Of a stretch of DNA of 64,000 nt, positions 6,471 through 31,111 are shown in pieces. The stretch lies in the NCBI RefSeq assembly GCF_002854065.1, contig NZ_CP024147.1, one strand, 5' to 3'. Below the pieces are notes generated by a model. It did not search any database. It was not told the origin of the DNA and saw nothing but the letters and a program-made list of their open reading frames with translations. The translations under genes and the position numbers were made by a program. Source of the DNA: Escherichia coli. Its GTDB lineage: Bacteria > Pseudomonadota > Gammaproteobacteria > Enterobacterales > Enterobacteriaceae. Numbering within the stretch: the first letter of the stretch is position 1; every line of letters begins with the position of its first letter.

Positions 6471-7445
6471 ATGACAAAATTACAACTTAAGTACCGGGAG
6501 TTAAAAATTATCTCGGTAATCGCTGCCAGTGAAAATATCAGCCATGCTGCGACTGTACTTGGCATCGCACAGGCCAACGTCAGCAAATACCTTGCTGATT
6601 TTGAATCAAAAGTGGGTTTAAAAGTCTTTGACCGAACCACCCGGCAGCTGATGCTCACACCTTTTGGTACCGCGCTGTTACCGTACATCAACGACATGCT
6701 GGACAGAAACGAGCAGCTTAATAATTTTATTGCAGATTATAAGCATGAGAAACGTGGTCGGGTCACCATCTACGCCCCAACCGGCATAATTACCTATTTA
6801 TCCAAACATGTAATCGATAAAATTAAAGATATCGGTGATATAACCTTATCGCTAAAAACCTGCAATCTTGAGCGTAATGCCTTTTATGAAGGCGTCGAAT
6901 TTCCTGATGATTGTGATGTTTTAATCAGCTACGCTCCACCAAAAGATGAATCGCTGGTTGCCAGTTTTATTACACAATATGCCGTAACCGCTTATGCCAG
7001 CCAGCGCTATCTTGAGAAACATCCTATTAGCCGTCCTGACGAACTCGAACATCACTCCTGTATTTTGATCGACTCGATGATGATCGACGACGCGAATATC
7101 TGGCGCTTCAACGTCGCCGGGAGTAAAGAGGTGCGGGATTATCGCGTGAAGGGAAATTACGTTTGCGACAACACGCAATCTGCGCTGGAGCTGGCACGAA
7201 ATCACCTGGGGATTGTGTTTGCGCCAGACAAAAGTGTGCAGAGAGATCTGCAAGACGGCACGCTGGTGCCCTGCTTTCAGCACCCGTATGAATGGTGGCT
7301 GGATCTGGTGGCTATCTTCCGTAAACGGGAATACCAGCCCTGGCGGGTCCAGTATGTGCTGGATGAAATGCTGCGTGAAATTCGCCACCAGCTTGCTCAG
7401 TCGCAGCAACTGCGGCCTGAACAAGCGGCGGAAAGCGAAGATTAA
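6471..7445 (+). CDS. yiaU: LysR-family transcriptional regulator
   Basis: 324-aa ORF; N-terminal HTH ([23 protein letters not shown]); divergent from yiaT. Confidence 0.85.
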
Positions 7446-8578
7446 TGATCGAGATAAAGGTAATGCACCCAGCTGGTCATGCGTAATAACACTTTGCGCA
7501 TCACCGAGACATGGCTGAAATGATCAGAGTAGACCGCCACCTGGGCGTAAATACCGTCTGGTAAAGCGCTCAAATCAGTGTGCTCATTCAGTTCAATGGT
7601 CGCGATAACGCCATCTGAACCCGGCGCTGTGTTTAACGTCTGTAAGGTGCCGGTCGACTGATAAGCTCCGCCGGGAACGGCTGGACTAATGGCTGCCAGC
7701 TTACCGCTGAATACCTTACCTGGCAGAGCATTAAACACCACTTCCGCATCGTCGCCAGGGGCCAGTCGCAGCAAGGAGTTCTGACGGAACTGCGCCACAA
7801 TTTGTCGTTTCTGATCGGGTATAAACACCATCACCGGACGTAGCGGCAGCGACGCGGCATAGGTACCCGGACGAATCAGTACCTGGGTCACATAACCATC
7901 GCTCGGCGCACGCACTATCGTCTGCTCAAGGTTATATTTTGCTTCCGCGAGCTGCGCTTTCAGGCTGGCGATTTGAGAATGTTCACCCAACACCAGGCTA
8001 TCCAGCTGGCTCTGGATCTGTTTTTGTTCCGCCGCCGATGACTTCACGGAGGCTTCCTGCGCCAGATAATTTTGCCGCGCCACATCGATATCGCGTTCTG
8101 AAAACGGGTTTACTTTCGCCTGGCTGCCGCGTGCGTAACGCTGATACTCTTTAGCGAATTTATCCCGCGTGGCCTTTGCCTGCTGAGTATTCGCCGCCAT
8201 CTCATCTAACTCTGCGCCCAACGCCCGCTGTTTATGTTCTGCGGTAACGATATCCGCCATCAGCCGATCCACCTGCGCCTGATAACGCGTCGGGTCCAGT
8301 CGAAATAGCACCTCACCTTTTTTAATTAGCGTATTTTTCTTGTCCGTCACTTCGATCACCACGCCTGTCACCTGCGGGACAACAGGAATAGAAATAACCG
8401 CTTTTTGCGCTTTAAAGGTATACGGATGGTTATAGTTCATTAACAGAATTAAACCGCTGACAATAAATATTCCACCCAGGGCCGCGGTGGGAATGGTCCA
8501 TTTATTTACAGGAATTTTGAAGATCTTAAACATTGCCCATGCGAAAGCCACATAGGTCAAAATAATCAGTAAATCCAT
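7442..8578 (-). CDS. yiaV: HlyD-family membrane fusion / periplasmic adaptor protein
   Basis: 378-aa ORF; N-terminal TM anchor then coiled-coil-rich region; about 75-80% identical by eye to the ORF at 17841-18977. Confidence 0.85.
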
Positions 8579-8583
8579 AAGTA

Positions 8584-8907
8584 TTACTCGGCAGAAGAGG
8601 ATTTGATGTCAGCGAGCTGTTTCTCCAGCCCAGCAATACGCTGTTGTAGTTGCACAACGGAGGAGTCATGGTTTTGCATTCCCCATCCCCGCTCCGGGCG
8701 GTAAAGCGTGGCCCAAATCCACAAAAATGGCCAGATAACATGCAGCGTAAAAAGACTCACCCAACCAGCAACATGAATGGCGTCGGCATGAGGATGATTA
8801 CGTTTTTTAGCAATCAGGTAGGGAATATCATGTAAAATAATAATCCCATAGAATATCACCAGAAATACAAAAATAAGCACTCCCAGTGCAAAATAGTCCA
8901 GGAACAT
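8584..8907 (-). CDS. yiaW: small inner-membrane protein (DUF3302)
   Basis: 107 aa from [17 protein letters not shown]...; 5 bp upstream of yiaV; paralogous to the ORF at 18980-19342. Confidence 0.8.
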
Positions 8908-9338
8908 ATTTCCCTCAGAGAATATAAAAAAGAACAATTAACACATATTATGAAATGCCATGATGCAGTGCAATTTCCTTATTTATATAACGACATATTA
9001 TTTTTTATATACTTTCTGAAGTGTGCTGCGTGGCTTTTCAACAGGTCGAGGTTTATCATATTGAAATAATGGAACTATTGGCCAAATTTATGATTAAAAA
9101 CCGTAAAACATCCACAATGCAGATTAAGCGTATTAAACCTTCAATAATCTACCGTTTATTGCTGATTGTCCTCGGAATACCAATGGTGATTTACGGTCTG
9201 GTTTGCCCGCTCACCATCGAAACGCGAGATTAAACTCCTGGCAAAACACACCCCAGAAACGCACTTTTGTTGGCGTAGTCTGGGTTATTGCACACGTAGG
9301 TTTAAAACGTAAATTGTAACAACGTGCGCTTTGTTTAT

Positions 9339-9420
9339 GCCGGATGCGGCGTGTACGCCTTATCCGGCCTACGGTCAGGTCCCCGTAGGCATGATAAGAC
9401 GCGTAAGCGTCGCATCAGGC
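9339..9420. repeat. REP extragenic palindromes
   Basis: gccggatgcggcgtgtacgccttatccggcctac ... gacgcgtaagcgtcgcatcaggc downstream of aldB. Confidence 0.65.
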
Positions 9421-9451
9421 AATTAATACCCGATGCGACCAGCTTCTTACA

Positions 9452-10990
9452 TCAGAACAGCCCCAACGGTTTATCTGAGTAGCTCACCAGCAGGCACTTG
9501 GTTTGCTGGTAATGCTCCAGCATCATCTTGTGGGTTTCGCGTCCAATGCCTGATTGTTTGTAGCCGCCAAACGCCGCATGTGCCGGGTAAGCGTGATAAC
9601 AGTTGGTCCACACGCGCCCGGCCTGAATGCCGCGCCCCATCTTATAGGCCAGATTACCGTTGCGGCTCCAGACGCCTGCGCCCAGGCCATATTGCGTATC
9701 GTTCGCCAGCTCCAGCGCTTCTTCCATCGTTTTGAAGGTGGTCACCGCCAGCACCGGGCCAAAAATCTCTTCCTGGAACACCCGCATATTGTTCTGACCA
9801 AACAGAATCGTCGGTTCAAGGTAGTAGCCGTCTTTCAGTTCGCCTTCCAGCAGCTTGCGCCGCCCGCCGGTGAGCACGTCTGCGCCCTCTTTTTTACCGA
9901 TATCAATGTAGTTGAGGATGGTTTCCAGTTGCCCGTGAGAAACCTGCGCACCCATTTGCGTCACGCTGTCGAGTGGGTTACCGCTGCGAATGCTTTCGAC
10001 ACGGCGGATGGCGCGTTCCATAAAGCGTTCGTAGATTGACTCCTGCACTAAGGCACGACTCGGACAGGTGCAAACTTCGCCCTGGTTAAAGGCAAACAGT
10101 GCAAAGCCTTCCAGCGCTTTATCGAAAAAGGCATCTTCTTCATCCATCACATCAGCAAAGAAGATATTTGGCGACTTACCGCCCAACTCCAGCGTCACCG
10201 GAATAATGTTTTGCGTTGCGTATTGCATAATTTGTTGGCCCACTTCCGTTGAGCCGGTAAACGCCACTTTGGCGATGCGTTTCGAGGTCGCCAGATATTC
10301 GCCAATTTCCCCACCTGCGCCATTGACCACGTTCACCACGCCCGGCGGCAGTAAATCACCGACAATTTCCATTAGCAGCAGTACAGAAAGCGGGGTAAGA
10401 CGTGCGGGTTTCAGCACCACACAGTTGCCCGCCGCCAGCGCGGGAGCCATTTTCCAGCTCGCCATCAGCAGCGGGAAGTTCCACGGGATAATCTGCCCCA
10501 CCACGCCTAACGGTTCATGGAAATGATAGGCCACGGTTTCGCTATCAACTTCACTGATCCCACCTTCCTGCGCCCGAATACACGAGGCGAAATAGCGGAA
10601 ATGGTCAATCGCCAGCGGTACATCCGCAGCACTGGTTTCGCGAATGGGTTTGCCGTTATCCCAGGTTTCAGCTGTCGCTAACAGCTCGAGGTTTTGTTCC
10701 ATTCGATCGGCAATCTTAAACAGAATCGCCGCGCGATCCTGCACCGAGGTGTGCGCCCATTTATCTTTCACTTTGTGCGCAGCATCCAGCGCCAGATCGA
10801 TGTCTCGTTTGCCCGAAGACGCCACTTCGCACAGCAGCTGCCCGGTCACCGGCGTCAGGTTCTGGTAATACTCACCATCGGCAGGGGCTACCCATTCGCC
10901 GCCAATAAAGTTGTCATAGCGGTTTTTTAACTTGAGGGGGAAACCATACTCGCCGGGCTTAATCTGTGCTGAAGGGGGATTATTGGTCAT
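9452..10990 (-). CDS. aldB: NADP-dependent aldehyde dehydrogenase B
   Basis: Start set at ATG 10990 ([17 protein letters not shown]...), giving 512 aa; aldehyde dehydrogenase motifs (ELGGKSP, VCTCPSR); the track ORF over-extends upstream. Confidence 0.9.
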
Positions 10991-11154
10991 GATCGTCTCC
11001 TTGCGGTGTGAGGTATAACAAGGGTAGACGTGACTGGCGAAATCTTCGCCAGTCGGTAACAGCTTTACGACAGCTATCACGAATTTACGGGCAAGGATTA
11101 CAGAGATAGTTGAAAAAGCGGCTGACAATTTGCCAGCCGTTGTTGGAATGATGA

Positions 11155-12167
11155 TTACATTGCGGCGCGATAAATCGCCACAATTTCTTCGTGAGTTGCC
11201 TGGATCGGGTTAGTAAAGCCACAGGCATCTTTCAGGGCATTAGTCGCCAGAACCGCGAAATCTTCTTCTTTCACGTTCAGGTCGCGTAGGCCTGCCGGGA
11301 TATCCACTTTCTTCGCCAGTTCACGGATGGCGTTAATGCAGGCTTCAGCACCTTCCGCGTCGTTTTTACCTGTCACGTTCACGCCCATTGCAGCGGCACA
11401 GTCACGCAGACGTGCAGCGGCGACTTTGCTGTTGAATACCTGAACATGCGGCAGCAGAACGGCGTTACATACACCGTGTGGCAGGTTGTAGAAACCGCCC
11501 AGCTGGTGCGCCATCGCATGAACATAACCCAGAGAAGCATTATTGAACGCCATACCGGCGAGGAACTGGGCATAAGCCATTGCTTCACGCGCTTTCGCAT
11601 TACTGCCATCTTCAACGGCTAACGGCAGGTTTTCGGCAATCATGGTCACGGCTTTCAGTGCACAAGCGTCAGTGATCGGCGTGGCGGCAATAGAAACATA
11701 CGCTTCGATAGCGTGCGTTAAGGCATCCATACCCGTTGCGGCGGTCAGTGACTTCGGCATACCAATCATCAGAGAGGAGTCATTGACAGAAAGCAGCGGA
11801 GTGACATGTTTATCAACAATCGCCATTTTGATATGACGCGCTTCGTCAGTGATGATGCAGAAACGGGTCATTTCAGAGGCCGTACCCGCCGTGGTATTGA
11901 TGGCGATCATCGGCAGCTGCGGTTTTGCAGAGCGGTCAACGCCTTCGTAATCGCGAATATCGCCGCCATTGGCTGCCACCAGCGCAATACCTTTTGCGCA
12001 GTCGTGCGGAGAACCACCGCCTAAGGAAATCACGCTATCGCAATTATTTTCTTTAAGTAATTTCAAACCTGCAGCGACGTTTTCCGTGGTGGGGTTAGGT
12101 TGGGTGCCATCATAAATAATGCTAAAAATATTGCGTTCTTCCAGTGCTTTTTGCACATCGCCCGCCA
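11155..12167 (-). pseudogene. yiaY: iron-containing alcohol dehydrogenase gene, 5'-truncated by IS1
   Basis: Fe-ADH frame (…[20 protein letters not shown]…) reads uninterrupted into the IS1 terminal repeat at 12168; about 45 N-terminal codons and the native promoter are absent. Confidence 0.8.
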
Positions 12168-12182
12168 GGTAATGACTCCAAC

Positions 12183-12686
12183 TTATTGATAGTGTTTTAT
12201 GTTCAGATAATGCCCGATGACTTTGTCATGCAGCTCCACCGATTTTGAGAACGACAGCGACTTCCGTCCCAGCCGTGCCAGGTGCTGCCTCAGATTCAGG
12301 TTATGCCGCTCAATTCGCTGCGTATATCGCTTGCTGATTACGTGCAGCTTTCCCTTCAGGCGGGATTCATACAGCGGCCAGCCATCCGTCATCCATATCA
12401 CCACGTCAAAGGGTGACAGCAGGCTCATAAGACGCCCCAGCGTCGCCATAGTGCGTTCACCGAATACGTGCGCAACAACCGTCTTCCGGAGACTGTCATA
12501 CGCGTAAAACAGCCAGCGCTGGCGCGATTTAGCCCCGACATAGCCCCACTGTTCGTCCATTTCCGCGCAGACGATGACGTCACTGCCCGGCTGTATGCGC
12601 GAGGTTACCGACTGCGGCCTGAGTTTTTTAAGTGACGTAAAATCGTGTTGAGGCCAACGCCCATAATGCGGGCAGTTGCCCGGCAT
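12183..12686 (-). CDS. insB: IS1 InsB (expressed as InsAB' by -1 frameshift)
   Basis: 167-aa [28 protein letters not shown]..., overlapping insA in the -1 frame. Confidence 0.95.
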
Positions 12687-12880
12687 CCAACGCCATTCAT
12701 GGCCATATCAATGATTTTCTGGTGCGTACCGGGTTGAGAAGCGGTGTAAGTGAACTGCAGTTGCCATGTTTTACGGCAGTGAGAGCAGAGATAGCGCTGA
12801 TGTCCGGCGGTGCTTTTGCCGTTACGCACCACCCCGTCAGTAGCTGAACAGGAGGGACAGCTGATAGAAACAGAAGCCAC
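12605..12880 (-). CDS. insA: IS1 InsA
   Basis: 91 aa, [43 protein letters not shown]... Confidence 0.95.
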
Positions 12881-12963
12881 TGGAGCACCTCAAAAACACC
12901 ATCATACACTAAATCAGTAAGTTGGCAGCATCACCTATTATTGTTTAGCAAAATTAATCTAAT

Positions 12964-13007
12964 AAAAAGCACATTGTATTCATTAAACAATGTGCTTTTT
13001 TTAAAAT
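12964..13007. terminator. perfect hairpin, probable bidirectional rho-independent terminator downstream of selB
   Basis: aaaagcacattgt-attcatta-acaatgtgcttttttt: 13-bp perfect stem with an A-tract on one side and T-tract on the other; sits in the 85-bp spacer between the two IS1 copies. Confidence 0.6.
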
Positions 13008-13035
13008 CATAAGAATTTTGGGTAATGACTCCAAC

Positions 13036-13539
13036 TTATTGATAGTGTTTTATGTTCAGATAATGCCCGATGACTTTGTCATGCAGCTCCACCGATTTTG
13101 AGAACGACAGCGACTTCCGTCCCAGCCGTGCCAGGTGCTGCCTCAGATTCAGGTTATGCCGCTCAATTCGCTGCGTATATCGCTTGCTGATTACGTGCAG
13201 CTTTCCCTTCAGGCGGGATTCATACAGCGGCCAGCCATCCGTCATCCATATCACCACGTCAAAGGGTGACAGCAGGCTCATAAGACGCCCCAGCGTCGCC
13301 ATAGTGCGTTCACCGAATACGTGCGCAACAACCGTCTTCCGGAGCCTGTCATACGCGTAAAACAGCCAGCGCTGGCGCGATTTAGCCCCGACGTATCCCC
13401 ACTGTTCGTCCATTTCCGCGCAGACGATGACGTCACTGCCCGGCTGTATGCGCGAGGTTACCGACTGCGGCCTGAGTTTTTTAAATGGCGGAAAATCGTG
13501 TTGAGGCCAACGCCCATAATGCGGGCGGTTGCCCGGCAT
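13036..13539 (-). CDS. insB: IS1 InsB (variant)
   Basis: 167 aa; [21 protein letters not shown]... vs copy 1 [21 protein letters not shown]...; YDRLRKT vs YDSLRKT. Confidence 0.9.
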
Positions 13540-13733
13540 CCAACGCCATTCATGGCCATATCAATGATTTTCTGGTGCGTACCGGGTTGAGAAGCGGTGT
13601 AAGTGAACTGCAGTTGCCATGTTTTACGGCAGTGAGAGCAGAGATAGCGCTGATGTCCGGCAGTGCTTTTGCCGTTACGCACCACCCCATCAGTAGCTGA
13701 ACAGGAGGGACAGCTGATAGAAACAGAAGCCAC
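13458..13733 (-). CDS. insA: IS1 InsA (variant)
   Basis: 91 aa; differs from copy 1 (…NTIFRHLKN… vs …NTILRHLKN…). Confidence 0.9.
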
Positions 13734-13831
13734 TGGAGCACCTCAAAAACACCATCATACACTAAATCAGTAAGTTGGCAGCATCACCGAATTTTGTATT
13801 AATTTATTTTAAAACTTAATTAATCATTTCC

Positions 13832-25170: not shown

Positions 25171-25854
25171 ATGAATCTAAAAAAGACACTATTAAGCGTG
25201 TTAATGATATCGCCACTCTGCATATTGACAGGGTGTGACTATATTGGAAAAGCAAAACTAATCGACGATCTCTCCAAACAACAAGAGTTGCAAAAAGGTA
25301 AAATAGAGCAACTTGAAAAACAACAAGAACAAGATAAACGCAAGATAGAACTATTTGAAAAACAGCAAACTGCCATCATAAATAGTACCAAAACGCTTGC
25401 TAGTGTGGTGAAGGCGGTTAAAGAAAAGCAGGATGAATTTGTCTTCACAGAATTTAACCCAGCACAAACACAATACTTCATTTTAAATAACGGCTCTGTC
25501 GGTTTGGCGGGTCGGGTGCTGGCTATTGATGCAGTTGAAAACGGCAGCGTTATTCGTATTTCGCTGGTCAACCTATTAAGCGTTCCCGTATCAAATATTG
25601 GTTTTCATGCTACATGGGGCAATGAAAGGCCCACCGATGCCAAAGCTCTGGCGAAGTGGCAACAATTACTTTTCAATACCACCCTGAATTCCACTCTGCA
25701 ATTAATGCCTGGTCAATGGCAAGACATTAATCTGACATTAAAAGGCGTTTCGCCTAATAACCTGAAGTATCTGAAGTTGTCCATCAATATGGACAATCTC
25801 CAGTTCGACACAGTTCAACCTGCTGAAACTCGGCAGCGAAAAAACAAAAAATAA
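25171..25854 (+). CDS. SadB-like inner-membrane lipoprotein (putative trimeric-autotransporter biogenesis helper)
   Basis: 227-aa ORF; signal peptide with lipobox LTGC and Asp at +2 (CD, inner-membrane retention signal); heptad-like coiled coil (QQELQKGKIEQLEKQQEQDKRKIELFEKQQ); AAGGA 8 nt before the ATG; 43 bp upstream of the adhesin gene. Confidence 0.75.
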   Translation: MNLKKTLLSVLMISPLCILTGCDYIGKAKLIDDLSKQQELQKGKIEQLEKQQEQDKRKIELFEKQQTAIINSTKTLASVVKAVKEKQDEFVFTEFNPAQTQYFILNNGSVGLAGRVLAIDAVENGSVIRISLVNLLSVPVSNIGFHATWGNERPTDAKALAKWQQLLFNTTLNSTLQLMPGQWQDINLTLKGVSPNNLKYLKLSINMDNLQFDTVQPAETRQRKNKK

Positions 25855-25897: not shown

Positions 25898-28800
25898 ATG
25901 AACAAAATATTTAAAGTAATCTGGAATCCGGCGACGGGCAGTTATAGCGTTGCCAGCGAAACGGCGAAGAGCCGTGGTAAGAAATCTGGTCGCAGTAAGC
26001 TGTTAATTTCTGCACTGGTTGCGGGTGGAATGTTGTCGTCGTTTGGGGCAAATGCCAGTGCGACACTTGATGGAGGTTCATCTATTGAAGACCCATCAAT
26101 GGGTACTCGCTGGCTTGCAATCGGTGAGGGCGCAAAAGCAACATCCGCGTTACAAGGTGATGGATATACCGTTGCGATAGGGCTTAATGCACTAGCAGAT
26201 GGTCAGGGTAGTCTTGCATTCGGCTACGATACCCACTCATCGGGTGATCGTTCTATCTCTATTGGCCAATATGCTGAATCCGCAGGAAACAGAACCATTG
26301 CTTTCGGTAGTGGGTCCAAGGCAATAGGAGACTATTCGCTTGCATTAGGAGGAACTACCTATACAGGTGGTGACTACTCCATTGCAGTGGGTAGGGATTC
26401 GAGGGTAGAAGACGATGCTGATTACGCCTCCTCTTTTGGTTACGGCGCCAAGGCAGGCGGGGTCTATAGCATGGCATTCGGTTTCGAAACTAAAGCTAAT
26501 GCCGTTGACAGCCTGGCAATGGGACGACTAGCTACAGCCAGTGCAGCAAACGCTATTGCGATAGGTGCAGAGGCTGAAGCCGCTGAAAATGCGATGGCTA
26601 TTGGCAATAATGCGAAGGCAAAAGGGACTAATAGCATGGCAATGGGGTTCGGAAGCCACGCCGATAAAGTCAATACTATCGCATTAGGAAATGGCAGCCA
26701 GGCTCTGGCAGATAATGCAATCGCCATAGGCCAGGGCAACAAAGCTGATGGCGTGGATGCCATCGCTCTGGGTAATGGTAGCCAGTCGAGAGGCTTAAAC
26801 ACCATTGCCTTAGGCACAGCCAGTAATGCAACTGGTGATAAGAGTCTTGCGCTTGGTAGTGATACCACTGCCAACGGTATTAACTCCGTCGCATTGGGTG
26901 CAGGTTCCACTGCGGATTTAGACAATACCGTCTCTGTCGACAATAGTTCATTAAAACGCAAGATCGTTAATGTGAAAAATGGCGCGATCAAGTCTGACAG
27001 TTACGATGCCATTAATGGTTCACAGCTTTATGCCATTAGCGACTCGGTAGCACAAAGGCTTGGGGGAGGATCATCAGTAGATGTTGATGACGGTACTGTT
27101 ACAGCACCAACCTACAATTTAAAAAATGGTAGCAAAAAGAACGTAGGGGCTGCGCTCACTGTACTTGATGAAAACACCCTGCAATGGGACCAAATCAAAG
27201 GCAAATACAGCGCTGCTCATGGTACTAGTAGCCCAACTGCCAGCGTAATCACCGATGTTGCGGATGGCACGATTTCAGCCTCCAGTAAGGAGGCGGTTAA
27301 CGGCTCCCAACTGCAAGCTACCAATGACGATGTTGAGGCCAACACCACCAATATCACCAACCTGACGGATTCCGTTGGTGACCTTCAGGCTGATGCCCTG
27401 CTCTGGAACGAAACTAAAAAGGCATTCAGTGCAGCTCACGGCCAGGATACCACCAGCAAAATCACCAACGTTAAAGATGGCGACCTGACGGCTGGCAGCA
27501 CTGATGCCGTTAACGGCTCTCAGCTGAAAACCACCAACGATGCTGTGGCGACGAATACCACCAATATCGCCAATAACACTTCCAATATTGCCACTAACAC
27601 CACCAACATCTCTAACCTGACTGAGACGGTGACTAACCTTGGTGAAGATGCGCTGAAATGGGATAAGGACAATTGTGTCTTCACGGCAGCTCATGGCACC
27701 GATGCCACCAGCAAAATCACCAATGTTAAAGATGGCGACCTGACGGCTGGCAGCACTGATGCCGTTAACGGCTCTCAGCTGAAAACTACCAACGATGCTG
27801 TGGCGACGAATACCACCAATATCGCCAATAACACTTCCAATATTGCCACTAACTCCACCAACATCTCTAACCTGACTGAGACGGTGACTAATCTTGGTGA
27901 GGATGCTCTGAAATGGGATAAGGACAATGGTGTCTTCACGGCAGCTCACGGCACCGAGGCCACCAGCAAAATCACCAACGTTAAAGATGCCGACCTGACG
28001 GCTGACAGCACCGATGCCGTTAACGGCTCTCAGCTGAAAACCACCAACGATGCCGTGGCGACGAATACCACCAATATCGCCACTAACACTTCCAATATTG
28101 CCACTAACACCACCAACATCTCTAACCTGACTGAGACGGTGACTAACCTTGGTGAAGATGCGCTGAAATGGGATAAGGACAATGGTGTATTCACGGCAGC
28201 TCACGGCACAGAAGCCACCAGCAAAATCACCAACGTTAAAGATGCCGACCTGACGGCTGGCAGCACTGATGCCGTTAACGGCTCCCAGCTGAAAACCACC
28301 AACGATGCTGTGGCGACGAATACCACCAATATTGCCACTAACACCACCAACATCTCTAACCTGACTGAGACGGTGACTAATCTTGGTGAGGATGCGCTGA
28401 AATGGGATAAGGACAATGGTGTATTCACGGCAGCTCATGGCAACAACACCGCCAGCAAAATCACCAATATCCTGGACGGCACAGTCACTGCAACCAGTTC
28501 CGATGCCATTAACGGCAGCCAGCTTTATGACTTAAGCAGCAATATCGCCACCTACTTCGGCGGCAATGCTTCTGTGAATACTGACGGTGTGTTTACCGGT
28601 CCAACCTACAAAATCGGTGAAACAAATTATTATAACGTCGGCGATGCACTGGCTGCGATTAACTCCTCATTTAGCACGTCTCTCGGCGATGCCCTGCTTT
28701 GGGACGCTTCCGTAGATAAATTTAGTGCCAAACACGGTACTAATGGTGACGCAAGCGTGATCACTGATGTCGCAAACGGGGATGTTTCAAGCACAAGCTC

Positions 28801-31111
28801 TGATGCTGTGAACGGCTCGCAACTCTATACCACCAATAAGTACGTCGTAGATGCGCTGGGTGGTGGTGCCGAAGTCAATGCAGACGGCACCATCACTGCG
28901 CCGACGTACACCATTGCTAATGCTGATTACGATAACGTCGGTGATGCCCTGAACGCCATCGACACCACTCTCGATGATGCTCTGCTCTGGGATACGGACG
29001 CCGGTGAAAATGGTGCATTTAGCGCCGCTCACGGAAAAGATAAAACTGCCAGTGTAATCACTAACGTCGCAAACGGTGCAATTTCCTCCACCAGCAGCGA
29101 TGCTGTTAACGGCTCACAACTCTATACTACCAATCAGTACATAGTCGATGCGCTGGGTGGTGACGCAGAAGTTAACGCTGACGGCACCATCACCGCACCG
29201 ACTTACACCATTGCGAATACCGATTACAACAACGTCGGTGACGCCCTGGATGCGCTTGATGATAACGCCCTGCTGTGGGATGAGACTGCCAATGGCGGTG
29301 CAGGAGCCTACAATGCCAGCCATGACGGTAAAGCCAGCATCATCACTAATGTCGCTGATGGCAGTATTAGTGAGGACAGCACCGATGCAGTGAACGGTTC
29401 TCAGTTGAATGCGACGAATATGATGATTGAGCAGAACAGCCAAATCATCAATCAGCTTGCTGGTAATACCGACGCAACCTATATCGAAGAAAATGGCGCT
29501 GGTATCAACTACGTTCGTACTAACGACAACGGTTTAGCCTTTAACGATGCAAGCGCCTCTGGTGTCGGCGCTACAGCTGTAGGTTATAACGCTGTCGCGT
29601 CTGGTGCCAGCAGCGTAGCCATTGGTCAGAACAGCAGCAGCACCGTTGATACCGGTATTGCGCTGGGTAGCAGCTCCGTTTCCAGCCGTGTAATTGCCAA
29701 AGGTTCTCGTGACACTAGCGTAACGGAAAATGGCGTGGTGATTGGTTATGACACCACTGACGGCGAACTGCTAGGTGCATTGTCAATTGGTGATGACGGT
29801 AAATACCGCCAAATCATCAACGTAGCTGATGGTTCAGAAGCCCATGACGCCGTTACGGTTCGTCAGTTGCAGAACGCTATTGGAGCGGTCGCCACTACGC
29901 CAACCAAGTACTTTCACGCCAACTCAACGGCAGAAGACTCACTGGCCGTTGGTGAAGACTCGCTGGCAATGGGTGCGAAAACTGTCGTTAATGGTAATGC
30001 AGGTATTGGTATCGGTTTGAACACTCTGGTTCTGGCTGATGCGATCAACGGCATTGCTATCGGCAGTAACGCACGCGCAAACCATGCAAACAGTATTGCA
30101 ATGGGTAACGGTTCTCAGACCACCCGTGGTGCACAGACTGGCTACACCGCCTACAACATGGACGCACCGCAGAACTCTGTAGGTGAGTTTTCTGTTGGTA
30201 GTGAAGACGGTCAACGTCAGATCACCAACGTCGCAGCTGGTTCAGCGGATACCGATGCGGTTAACGTGGGTCAGTTGAAAGTCACTGATGAGCGCGTAGC
30301 GCAAAATACCCAGAGCATTACTAACCTGAACAATCAGGTCACTAATCTGGATACTCGCGTTACTAATATCGAAAACGGTATTGGCGATATCGTGACCACC
30401 GGTAGCACCAAGTACTTCAAGACCAACACCGATGGCGTAGATGCCAACGCCCAGGGTAAAGATAGCGTTGCGATTGGTTCTGGTTCCATTGCTGCCGCTG
30501 ACAACAGCGTCGCACTGGGTACAGGCTCCGTGGCCAACGAAGAAAACACGATCTCTGTGGGTTCTTCTACCAACCAGCGCCGTATCACCAACGTAGCTGC
30601 CGGTGTTAATGCCACCGATGCGGTTAACGTGTCGCAGCTGAAATCTTCTGAAGCAGGCGGCGTTCGCTACGACACCAAAGCTGATGGCTCTATCGACTAC
30701 AGCAACATCACTCTTGGTGGTGGCAACGGAGGTACGACTCGCATCAGCAACGTTTCCGCAGGTGTGAACAACAACGACGCGGTGAACTACGCGCAGTTGA
30801 AGCAAAGCGTGCAGGAAACAAAGCAATACACCGATCAGCGCATGGTTGAGATGGATAACAAACTGTCTAAAACTGAAAGCAAGTTGAGCGGGGGTATCGC
30901 TTCTGCAATGGCAATGACCGGTCTGCCGCAGGCTTACACTCCAGGTGCCAGCATGGCTTCTATTGGTGGCGGTACTTACAACGGTGAATCGGCAGTTGCT
31001 TTAGGTGTATCGATGGTGAGCGCCAATGGTCGTTGGGTCTACAAATTACAAGGTAGTACCAATAGCCAGGGTGAATACTCCGCCGCACTCGGTGCCGGTA
31101 TTCAGTGGTAA
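25898..31111 (+). CDS. upaG: trimeric autotransporter adhesin (YadA-like; UpaG/EhaG/SadA family)
   Basis: 1737-aa ORF; extended signal peptide [27 protein letters not shown]...; repetitive head/neck/stalk motifs; C-terminal YadA-type anchor (...[15 protein letters not shown]...[38 protein letters not shown]). Position between yibL and lldP fits what I recall for upaG/ehaG/sadA. Confidence 0.85.
27392..28390 (+). repeat. in-frame tandem repeats inside the adhesin gene (255-bp / 85-aa unit)
   Basis: Units start at 27392, 27647, 27902 and 28157 (the last 21 bp shorter); a degenerate fifth starts at 28391. Units are more than 95% identical by eye ([29 protein letters not shown]...TNLGE). Confidence 0.85.

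What the first reader, a model, noticed from the sequence alone, without database searches (positions are those of the whole stretch)
27392..28480. Near-identical 255-bp in-frame tandem repeats in the adhesin stalk, including a Gly-to-Cys variant unit
Four consecutive 85-aa units (one shortened by 7 codons) plus a degenerate fifth are more than 95% identical at DNA level, and a further pair of about 100-aa repeats follows at roughly 28700-29300. Such arrays expand and contract by slipped-strand or recombinational events and change fibre length, so copy number probably varies between isolates and may be mis-assembled from short reads. Unit 2 carries DNCVF (aattgtgtc, about 27671-27679) where the other units have DNGVF; a cysteine in a trimeric stalk would sit at three symmetry-related positions and could form inter-chain disulfides or be a sequencing error.
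Basis: seen in the sequence. Interest (0 to 1): 0.4.

Follow-up and report, generated by a model that had tools for sequence, protein, structure and literature searches.

The report
Repeat array in EhaG-like adhesin stalk
The repeats are real, in-frame copies of a standard stalk module in an E. coli EhaG/UpaG-type trimeric adhesin, and both the length differences and the odd cysteine are ordinary inherited allele variation rather than errors or anything new.

Summary
Window 27425-28423 holds four in-frame units of 255, 255, 255 and 234 bp, 94.4-96.6% identical pairwise. They lie in a 1737-aa trimeric autotransporter adhesin gene (25898-31111) at the mtlR-yibL-sadB-like-[TAA]-lldP locus, the UpaG/EhaG position. 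Each unit is a long neck, a coiled coil of IxxNTxx heptads and a DALL2 connector, homologous to crystallised SadA fragments.

Complete E. coli genomes carry 1, 2, 3 or 4 such units. Canonical EhaG has 2, and this lineage has 4. The count is constant within lineages, so this is not a hypervariable locus.

The fast-changing layer is the 21-bp heptad. The window lacks 63 bp (three heptads) relative to the near-identical strain CUWW06, and the deletion is bounded by a 17-bp direct repeat.

The cysteine codon (TGT, 27674-27676) is genuine. It recurs in CUWW06 and on about 40 public contigs, while the sister strain 100416 has GGT. It sits in the turn of the DALL beta-hairpin, where G, D, N, K, T and E all occur, so an intra-trimer disulfide is unlikely.

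The window's assembly is reproduced base for base in two independent drafts. Some public short-read assemblies of this lineage do show scrambled units.

Ordinary and already known; low interest.

The parts
25171..25854 (+). sadB-like inner-membrane lipoprotein gene (DUF3251), immediately upstream partner of the adhesin gene
   Evidence: Matches PDB 4C47 'inner membrane lipoprotein' at E 1.6e-72. Annotated as a DUF3251 protein in CUWW06. The review PMC7247746 describes SadB as needed for SadA surface display.
25898..31111 (+). Trimeric autotransporter adhesin gene, 1737 aa, EhaG/UpaG positional orthologue
   Evidence: Single ORF. Pfam hits: ESPR, YadA_head x12, YadA_stalk x14, YadA_anchor. The locus mtlR-yibT-yibL-DUF3251-TAA-lldP is the same as for ehaG and upaG.
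27206..27424 (+). Diverged unit 0 (73 aa); 63 bp (three IxxNTxx heptads) shorter than in CUWW06 and 100416, with the deletion point at about 27338-27355
   Evidence: Unit boundaries. Alignment with L001/L002 shows the 63-bp gap. The boundary carries the 17-bp direct repeat CCAACACCACCAATATC.
27425..27679 (+). Repeat unit 1 (255 bp, 85 aa), ending in the DALL motif that carries Cys593
27674..27676 (+). TGT codon = Cys593, the only Cys in the protein; GGT (Gly) in strain 100416
27680..27934 (+). Repeat unit 2 (255 bp); lineage-specific, at least 10 mismatches to any unit in other sampled alleles
27935..28189 (+). Repeat unit 3 (255 bp); DNA-identical to unit 2 of strain 2018-05-2CC
28190..28423 (+). 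Repeat unit 4 (234 bp, 78 aa; lacks one 21-bp heptad); 1 mismatch to unit 3 of strain 2018-05-2CC
27557..27610 (+). 21-bp heptad sub-repeat (IA[TN]NT[ST]N) inside unit 1; equivalents lie at 27812-27865 and 28067-28120
   Evidence: TRF period-21 rows; three [IV]xxN[TS]xx heptads per full unit
28424..29305 (+).
   Evidence: the FGG region aligns to SadA 2YO2 and AtaA 3WPA

Best explanation
The array is four tandem copies of the standard stalk module of an EhaG/UpaG/SadA-type trimeric autotransporter adhesin. Each module has three parts. A long neck ([22 protein letters not shown]) converts beta structure to helix. A trimeric coiled coil follows, built of two or three IxxNTxx heptads plus flanking heptads. 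A DALL2 connector ([18 protein letters not shown]) converts helix back to beta structure.

Adding or removing whole modules (255 bp), or single heptads (21 bp), keeps the reading frame and the coiled-coil register. It therefore only changes fibre length and the number of exposed DALL hairpins.

The modules are old duplicates. Units at the same position in different alleles are more alike than neighbouring units within one allele. Whole-unit changes arise rarely, by in-register homologous recombination between units that are about 95% identical. Heptad changes arise faster, by slippage between short direct repeats.

This lineage carries four units, where canonical EhaG has two. The window's sublineage has additionally lost three heptads from unit 0.

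Cys593 is an inherited G-to-T missense polymorphism in the solvent-exposed turn of the first DALL hairpin. It is most likely near-neutral.

Shown by the tools: anatomy, homology, allele counts, deletion junctions and recurrence of the Cys. Inferred: the effect on fibre length, the recombination and slippage mechanisms, and the neutrality and exposure of the Cys.
For: Anatomy.

Family and locus: Pfam ESPR, head, stalk and anchor. The same flanking genes occur around annotated ehaG and upaG. The C-terminal 597 aa are 93-94% identical to both EhaG and UpaG. The spacing pattern is 73/85/85/85/78/99/99/97, against 94/85/78/99/99/97 for EhaG.

Module identity: phmmer hits to SadA fragments 2YNZ (E 1.8e-17), 2YO2 and 3ZMF, and to AtaA 3WPA. 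The only PDB fold hit of the AF2 model is SadA 3ZMF. DALL2 and long-neck motif strings are given in eLife PMC4786415 Table 2. N@d layers are described there too. Each full unit has three [IV]xxN[TS]xx heptads.

Copy number in complete genomes:
- 4 units: CUWW06, 100416.
- 3 units: about 30 genomes, mostly O145:H28, plus O169:H41 and 2018-05-2CC.
- 2 units: every sampled ehaG genome.
- 1 unit: 600468, W2-5, O145 RM13514 and RM12581.

Recombination signature: the single unit of RM13514 is a u1/u3 in-register chimera.

Slippage signature: the 63-bp deletion lies between 17-bp direct repeats. The two strains otherwise differ by about 5 SNPs over about 36 kb.

Positional orthology: window u3 and u4 show 0 and 1 mismatches to 2018-05-2CC u2 and u3.

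Cys:
- Shared with CUWW06, while 100416 has GGT.
- The exact window protein is on 7 contigs and the 1758-aa Cys form on 33 contigs.
- The position is occupied by G 778, D 95, N 62, K 55, T 35, E 9 and C 7 across 1041 DALL motifs.
- The AF2 model places it as the last residue of the KDNC turn, between strands KWD and VFT.
Against: No reads were available, so read-level support for the window itself is indirect and rests on identical independent assemblies.

The 1-unit O145:H28 genomes and many shorter database alleles could be assembly collapses rather than real deletions. One search shows that such artefacts exist.

The AF2 model is a monomer of modest confidence (pLDDT 69), and no trimer coordinates could be inspected. 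Exposure of the Cys and the distance between the three copies are therefore inferred, not measured.

No expression or functional data were examined for this allele.
Confidence: 0.85

Rival explanations
1. Assembly or sequencing artefact: the repeat count, the 63-bp shortfall, or the T at the Cys codon is an error of this assembly.
For: Units share exact stretches of up to 100 bp. Public ENA-derived proteins of the same lineage (P0013, P0015, P0035) have 2-3 units with the Cys marker in impossible positions, which looks like graph mis-threading.
Against: The 5214-bp gene is base-for-base identical in two independent draft assemblies, GCA_036586245.1 and GCA_029000605.1. The exact protein is on 7 contigs, including a 4.64-Mb one. 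Two closed genomes have the same four units. The Cys codon is shared with CUWW06 and 33 further contigs.
Confidence: 0.04
2. Hypervariable (contingency-like) locus: the 255-bp array expands and contracts frequently, so copy number differs between closely related isolates and tunes fibre length on short time scales.
For: Length ladders of exactly 85 aa (1758/1673/1588/1510) and 78 aa (1909/1831) appear among database homologues with otherwise near-identical sequence. There is a 3-unit versus 1-unit difference within O145:H28.
Against: All seven distinct sequences of the lineage's 90% clusters, covering about 90 contigs, keep four units. About 30 closed genomes (mostly O145:H28) share three units, and all 24 sampled ehaG genomes plus sampled O157:H7 share two. 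Neighbouring units differ at about 5% of sites and are positionally orthologous across alleles, which means there has been no recent homogenisation. Part of the ladder is attributable to short-read artefacts.
Confidence: 0.08
3. The Gly-to-Cys change is functional: three symmetry-related thiols form inter-chain disulfides within a fibre, disulfides between fibres, or thiol-mediated contacts, altering stability, aggregation or secretion.
For: It is the only Cys in the protein. The family norm is zero Cys: 108 of 125 homologues have none and none has two. T5SS passengers are generally Cys-poor (PMC8151025). The allele persists on about 40 contigs.
Against: The position lies in a hairpin turn that tolerates G, D, N, K, T and E and has variable loop length. 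Other sporadic single-Cys variants occur at scattered positions in homologues, as expected for neutral missense noise. A three-fold arrangement can pair at most two of the three thiols. Gly and Cys alleles coexist at similar frequency in the lineage.
Confidence: 0.05

Closest known systems
EhaG (E. coli O157:H7 trimeric autotransporter adhesin, 1588 aa)
   Same: Same chromosomal position, between the sadB-like gene and lldP. Same module order. The same [14 protein letters not shown]-type 85/78-aa units are present. The C-terminal 597 aa are 92.6% identical.
   Different: EhaG has 2 units where the window has 4. EhaG unit 0 has 94 aa against 73 here. The head region (residues 1-436) is only 72% identical. 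EhaG has no Cys. RefSeq names the window-type allele only 'YadA-like family protein'.
UpaG (uropathogenic E. coli CFT073, 1778 aa)
   Same: Positional orthologue with the same flanking genes. The C-terminal 597 aa are 94% identical. It also carries a tandem array of neck/coiled-coil/DALL units.
   Different: UpaG units are 78 and 71 aa of the DSLLWN...AFSAAHG type (spacing 78/78/78/71/71). The head is 51% identical and the stalk repeat region about 66%.
SadA (Salmonella enterica), crystallised fragments 2YNZ, 2YO2, 3ZMF
   Same: The same DALL2 + long-neck connector and N@d coiled coils. The same sadB-like partner gene. [quoted passage not shown]
   Different: Different species. SadA is reported as highly conserved within S. 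enterica. Its modules are not near-identical tandem copies.
BadA (Bartonella henselae) neck/stalk repeats
   Same: The stalk is built of recurring FGG / coiled-coil / DALL-neck modules. Gene variants are generated by recombination. DALL-neck hairpins contribute directly to fibronectin binding (PMC9602544).
   Different: BadA has about 30 modules and is a much longer fibre from an unrelated genus. No ligand binding by the E. coli DALL hairpins was tested here.
Saa (STEC autoagglutinating adhesin)
   Same: An E. coli TAA reported to vary in size between strains (PMC7247748).
   Different: Saa is a different gene and locus and was not compared at sequence level here.

Membership tests
Trimeric autotransporter adhesin (type Vc secretion) | C-terminal YadA-like membrane anchor | tested here: met
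   PF03895 YadA_anchor, 68.4 bits against a cutoff of 22.7, residues 1677-1737
Trimeric autotransporter adhesin (type Vc secretion) | Passenger with YadA-like head repeats and neck/coiled-coil stalk | tested here: met
   PF05658 x12 and PF05662 x14; DAVNxxQL neck motifs at every unit
Trimeric autotransporter adhesin (type Vc secretion) | Extended signal peptide (ESPR) | tested here: met
   PF13018, 59.4 bits, residues 1-48
Trimeric autotransporter adhesin (type Vc secretion) | Forms a homotrimer on the cell surface | not testable with these tools
   Inferred only from homology to crystallised trimeric SadA fragments
SadA/UpaG/EhaG orthologue group | Chromosomal position downstream of a sadB-like lipoprotein gene, between yibL and lldP | tested here: met
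   Window and CUWW06 annotation. The same order surrounds annotated ehaG and upaG. The upstream ORF matches 4C47 at E 1.6e-72.
SadA/UpaG/EhaG orthologue group | Conserved C-terminal third (last heads, stalk and anchor) | tested here: met
   92.6% identity to EhaG and 94.0% to UpaG over 597 aa
EhaG allele type (as opposed to UpaG type) | 85/78-aa [14 protein letters not shown] units and the 94/85/78/99/99/97 module order | tested here: met
   Same unit type and order, with two extra units and a shortened unit 0
EhaG allele type (as opposed to UpaG type) | EhaG-type head domain, and naming as EhaG by RefSeq | tested here: inconclusive
   The head is 72% identical to O157 EhaG, against 51% to UpaG. 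RefSeq labels the CUWW06 and 100416 proteins 'YadA-like family protein'. NCBIfam shows no EhaG or UpaG HMM match, and all hits fall below their cutoffs.
DALL2 + long-neck tandem connector (daTAA domain dictionary) | Sequence and fold match to SadA DALL2/long-neck structures | tested here: met
   2YNZ at E 1.8e-17 and 2YO2 at E 2.5e-22. The motifs DAL-[KL]W and STDAVNGSQ[LM]K match the strings in PMC4786415 Table 2. The AF2 model shows helix, hairpin, helix, and the only PDB fold hit is 3ZMF.
N@d-layer coiled coil | Heptads with Asn at position d ([IVL]xxNTxx) that coordinate anions | tested here: inconclusive
   The sequence motif is present 2-3 times per unit and the concept is described in PMC4786415. 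Ion binding itself cannot be tested here.
Phase-variable / contingency repeat locus | Repeat changes that switch expression on and off (frame-shifting) or occur at high frequency within clones | tested here: not met
   All observed indels are multiples of 21 or 255 bp and stay in frame. The unit count is constant within lineages.

The most novel reading that the evidence does not exclude
The least conventional reading not excluded is that stalk length (unit and heptad number) is tuned lineage by lineage to the thickness of the O-antigen, capsule or fimbrial layer that would otherwise mask the adhesin. Within that reading, the lone surface Cys in this lineage would give the fibre a reactive thiol. 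That thiol could cross-link fibres of neighbouring cells, or bind host thiols or metals, changing aggregation.

The review evidence that LPS and fimbriae inhibit SadA function makes length tuning plausible. Nothing here tests it.
Probability: 0.07. Interest if true: 0.4.

Novelty: already known. Interest (0 to 1): 0.15.

Why it matters
The practical value is modest.

1. The UpaG/EhaG locus should be typed by module count and heptad count, not just presence or absence. UpaG and EhaG have been proposed as vaccine antigens, and the exposed stalk differs by up to three modules between lineages.

2. Public short-read assemblies of this gene can contain scrambled or collapsed units. Allele lengths taken from draft genomes need long-read confirmation.

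3. The 63-bp heptad deletion and an IS1-associated 6.3-kb difference are the main changes between two near-identical strains. This illustrates that repeat-mediated events outpace point mutation here.

Nothing in the finding changes the understanding of trimeric autotransporters.

Tried and rejected
1. Counting units with a 111-bp junction query. Only 51 genomes matched and 'places' under-counted the junctions, so it was unreliable. I replaced it with a query of the two flanks joined together and inferred array length from the span in each record.

2. Reading the primary papers: Hartmann 2012 (PMC3529040), Valle 2008 (PMC2446758) and Totsika 2012 (PMC3302597). None is held, so I used reviews and the eLife 2016 table instead.

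3. NCBIfam gave no EhaG or UpaG model match, and all hits were below their cutoffs, so it was uninformative for membership.

4. Structure prediction of the Cys-bearing module gave only a monomer at pLDDT 69. It is useful for secondary structure but cannot give inter-chain distances. The trimer geometry question stays open.

5. I considered and rejected a real gene on the antisense ORF 27275-28438. Its product is simply the repetitive reverse translation, and it is not annotated in RefSeq relatives.

6. I considered concerted evolution (gene conversion) among units and rejected it. Positional orthologues across alleles are closer to each other than neighbouring paralogues are.
Full report
**1. 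Observation**

Tandem Repeats Finder reports a 255-bp period array at 27424-28467, with 4.2 copies and a score of 1703. It also reports nested 21-bp repeats. An independent seed-and-extend search finds 300-nt copies spaced exactly 255 bp apart.

The array lies inside one 5214-bp ORF, 25898-31111 on the + strand, encoding 1737 aa. With the motif F[ST]AAHG as register, the units are:

| Unit | Coordinates | Length |
|---|---|---|
| u1 | 27425-27679 | 255 bp, 85 aa |
| u2 | 27680-27934 | 255 bp, 85 aa |
| u3 | 27935-28189 | 255 bp, 85 aa |
| u4 | 28190-28423 | 234 bp, 78 aa |

Pairwise DNA identity is 94.4-96.6%. More diverged relatives flank the array. One lies upstream at 27206-27424 (219 bp). 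Three modules of about 99 aa lie downstream at 28424-28720, 28721-29017 and 29018-29305. The last two of these are 76% identical at protein level.

The codon TGT at 27674-27676, within aat tgt gtc at 27671-27679, encodes the protein's only cysteine. The one small correction is that '>95%' should read 'about 95%'.

**2. What the gene is**

Pfam finds an ESPR signal peptide, 12 YadA head repeats, 14 YadA stalk segments and the YadA anchor.

The flanking genes are mtlR, yibT, yibL and a DUF3251 gene upstream, and lldP downstream. The same order surrounds the annotated ehaG of O157:H7 86-24 and upaG of CFT073. The DUF3251 ORF (25171-25854) matches the PDB entry 4C47, an inner-membrane lipoprotein, at E 1.6e-72. 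A review describes the SadB lipoprotein as required for SadA display.

Identity of the window protein to the two reference adhesins:

| Region | EhaG | UpaG |
|---|---|---|
| C-terminal 597 aa | 92.6% | 94.0% |
| Head (1-436) | 72% | 51% |

The module spacing is 73/85/85/85/78/99/99/97, against 94/85/78/99/99/97 in EhaG and 78/78/78/71/71/99/100/93 in UpaG. This is an EhaG-type allele with a distinct head variant and an expanded stalk array. RefSeq calls the same protein in close relatives 'YadA-like family protein'.

**3. What one unit is**

The repeat region hits crystallised SadA fragments: 2YNZ at E 1.8e-17, 2YO2 at E 2.5e-22, and 3ZMF. It also hits AtaA (3WPA).

Table 2 of eLife 2016 (PMC4786415) gives SadA DALL2 as VAGLAEDALLWDESI, running coiled coil, beta-layer, strand, coil. 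It gives the long neck as [12 protein letters not shown]. The window units carry [14 protein letters not shown] and [12 protein letters not shown].

Each unit is therefore a long neck, a coiled coil and a DALL2 connector. The coiled coil contains three consecutive [IV]xxN[TS]xx heptads, or two in the short unit. This is the sequence signature of the N@d layers, in which core asparagines coordinate anions.

An AlphaFold2 monomer model of the Cys-bearing module (pLDDT 69) gives helix 2-24, strand KWD, turn KDNC, strand VFT and helix 69-85. Its only PDB fold match is SadA 3ZMF.

**4. Copy-number variation**

I queried all complete RefSeq E. coli genomes with the two flanks joined together, and read the array length from the span in each record. 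I then checked representative loci directly.

| Units | Genomes |
|---|---|
| 4 | CUWW06, 100416 |
| 3 | about 30 genomes, mostly O145:H28, plus O169:H41 and 2018-05-2CC |
| 2 | every ehaG-annotated genome sampled, including O157:H7 |
| 1 | 600468, W2-5, O145:H28 RM13514 and RM12581 |

The single unit of RM13514 is an in-register chimera of units 1 and 3 of its 3-unit relatives. An unequal crossover would leave that footprint, and so would an assembly collapse.

Database proteins show matching length ladders in steps of 85, 78 and 7 aa.

Within lineages the count is constant. All seven distinct sequences in the window's 90% clusters, covering about 90 contigs, have four units.

Units are positionally orthologous across alleles. 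Window u3 and u4 differ by 0 and 1 nucleotides from u2 and u3 of strain 2018-05-2CC. Neighbouring units within the window differ by 8-14 nucleotides. The duplications are therefore old, and the array is not being homogenised.

**5. The fast layer is the heptad**

Over about 36 kb of collinear sequence, the window differs from CUWW06 by about five SNPs. Within the adhesin gene it differs by one SNP (27292, Asp to Glu) and a 63-bp gap. The gap removes three heptads ([21 protein letters not shown]) from unit 0. It is bounded by the 17-bp direct repeat CCAACACCACCAATATC. This is a classic slippage or short-homology deletion.

Variation by one heptad is also seen in other alleles, giving units of 78, 85 or 92 aa.

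**6. The cysteine**

CUWW06 also has TGT, while the sister strain 100416 has GGT. The exact window protein is on record from 7 contigs, under the accessions AUJ98062.1, EKO5026994.1, MEF3713531.1 and MEF3722121.1. The 1758-aa Cys form is on 33 contigs, and Gly forms of the same allele are on about 50. Two independent draft assemblies carry a gene identical to the window at all 5214 positions. A sequencing error is excluded.

The residue aligns with Gly in SadA 2YNZ (DDEEGAF) and with Ser in 2YO2 (DESISAF). Across 1041 DALL motifs in 125 homologues, this position holds G 778, D 95, N 62, K 55, T 35, E 9 and C 7, and the loop length varies. That pattern indicates an exposed turn.

Type V passengers are generally Cys-poor (PMC8151025). 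Here 108 of 125 homologues have no Cys and none has two. Sporadic single-Cys variants occur at other scattered positions.

The most economical reading is a tolerated missense polymorphism. An intra-trimer disulfide is unlikely, but I could not measure the distances.

**7. Mis-assembly**

The window's own structure is reproducible, as shown above. However, three ENA-derived proteins of this lineage (P0013, P0015, P0035) have 2-3 units with unit markers and the Cys in orders that no single crossover can produce. The longest exact repeat between units is 100 bp.

**8. Comparison and novelty**

Reviews already describe UpaG, EhaG and SadA as positional orthologues with extensive passenger variation. 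They also describe size variation in Saa. For BadA, a primary study reports recombination-driven variants with repeated FGG/coiled-coil/DALL-neck modules, whose DALL hairpins bind fibronectin.

The array, its polymorphism and this exact allele are all in public data. I rate this as already known and of low interest (0.15).

What remains open is whether stalk length is tuned to surface-layer thickness, and whether the lone thiol has any effect. Neither is supported by positive evidence.

Noticed in passing
window 6471-13788: The window carries yiaU-like LysR, HlyD-like, aldB-like and Fe-ADH genes plus two IS1 copies (12168-12935 and 13020-13788). The near-identical strain CUWW06 has a single IS1 there and lacks about 6.26 kb. 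This is an IS1-associated deletion or insertion between near-clonal strains.
   Followed up: partly
window 27275-28438 (- strand): A 387-aa antisense ORF lies entirely inside the repeat array. Its translation is itself repetitive and it is not annotated in RefSeq relatives, so it is most likely a by-product of the repeated codon pattern.
   Followed up: partly
window 27292: A G/T SNP (Glu in the window, Asp in CUWW06 and 100416) sits in the neck motif of unit 0. It is the only point difference from CUWW06 within the gene.
   Followed up: yes
window 25171-25854: The DUF3251 ORF directly upstream is a close homologue of the crystallised inner-membrane lipoprotein 4C47 (E 1.6e-72). This is the SadB-type partner of SadA-family adhesins.
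   Followed up: yes
NZ_CM177021.1 (hit H123, strain RMDEC332): The ehaG gene in this complete genome is interrupted by an IS3-family element, and the match span is about 1.26 kb longer.
   Followed up: no
L009 (NZ_AP027877.1, strain 2018-05-2CC): The orthologous adhesin gene is annotated as a frameshifted pseudogene, and three stops appear in the frame used. This could be a real inactivation or a long-read homopolymer error.
   Followed up: no
L005 vs L006 (O145:H28 RM13514 vs RM13516): Two O145:H28 complete genomes (RM13514, RM12581) have one unit, where about 30 closed genomes (mostly O145:H28) have three. The single unit is an in-register u1/u3 chimera. This is either a real 510-bp deletion or a collapse in older assemblies.
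   Followed up: partly
proteins P0013, P0015, P0035 (ENA assemblies): These alleles come from the window's lineage but have scrambled unit order and a misplaced Cys marker. They are probably short-read assembly artefacts sitting in public protein collections.
   Followed up: partly
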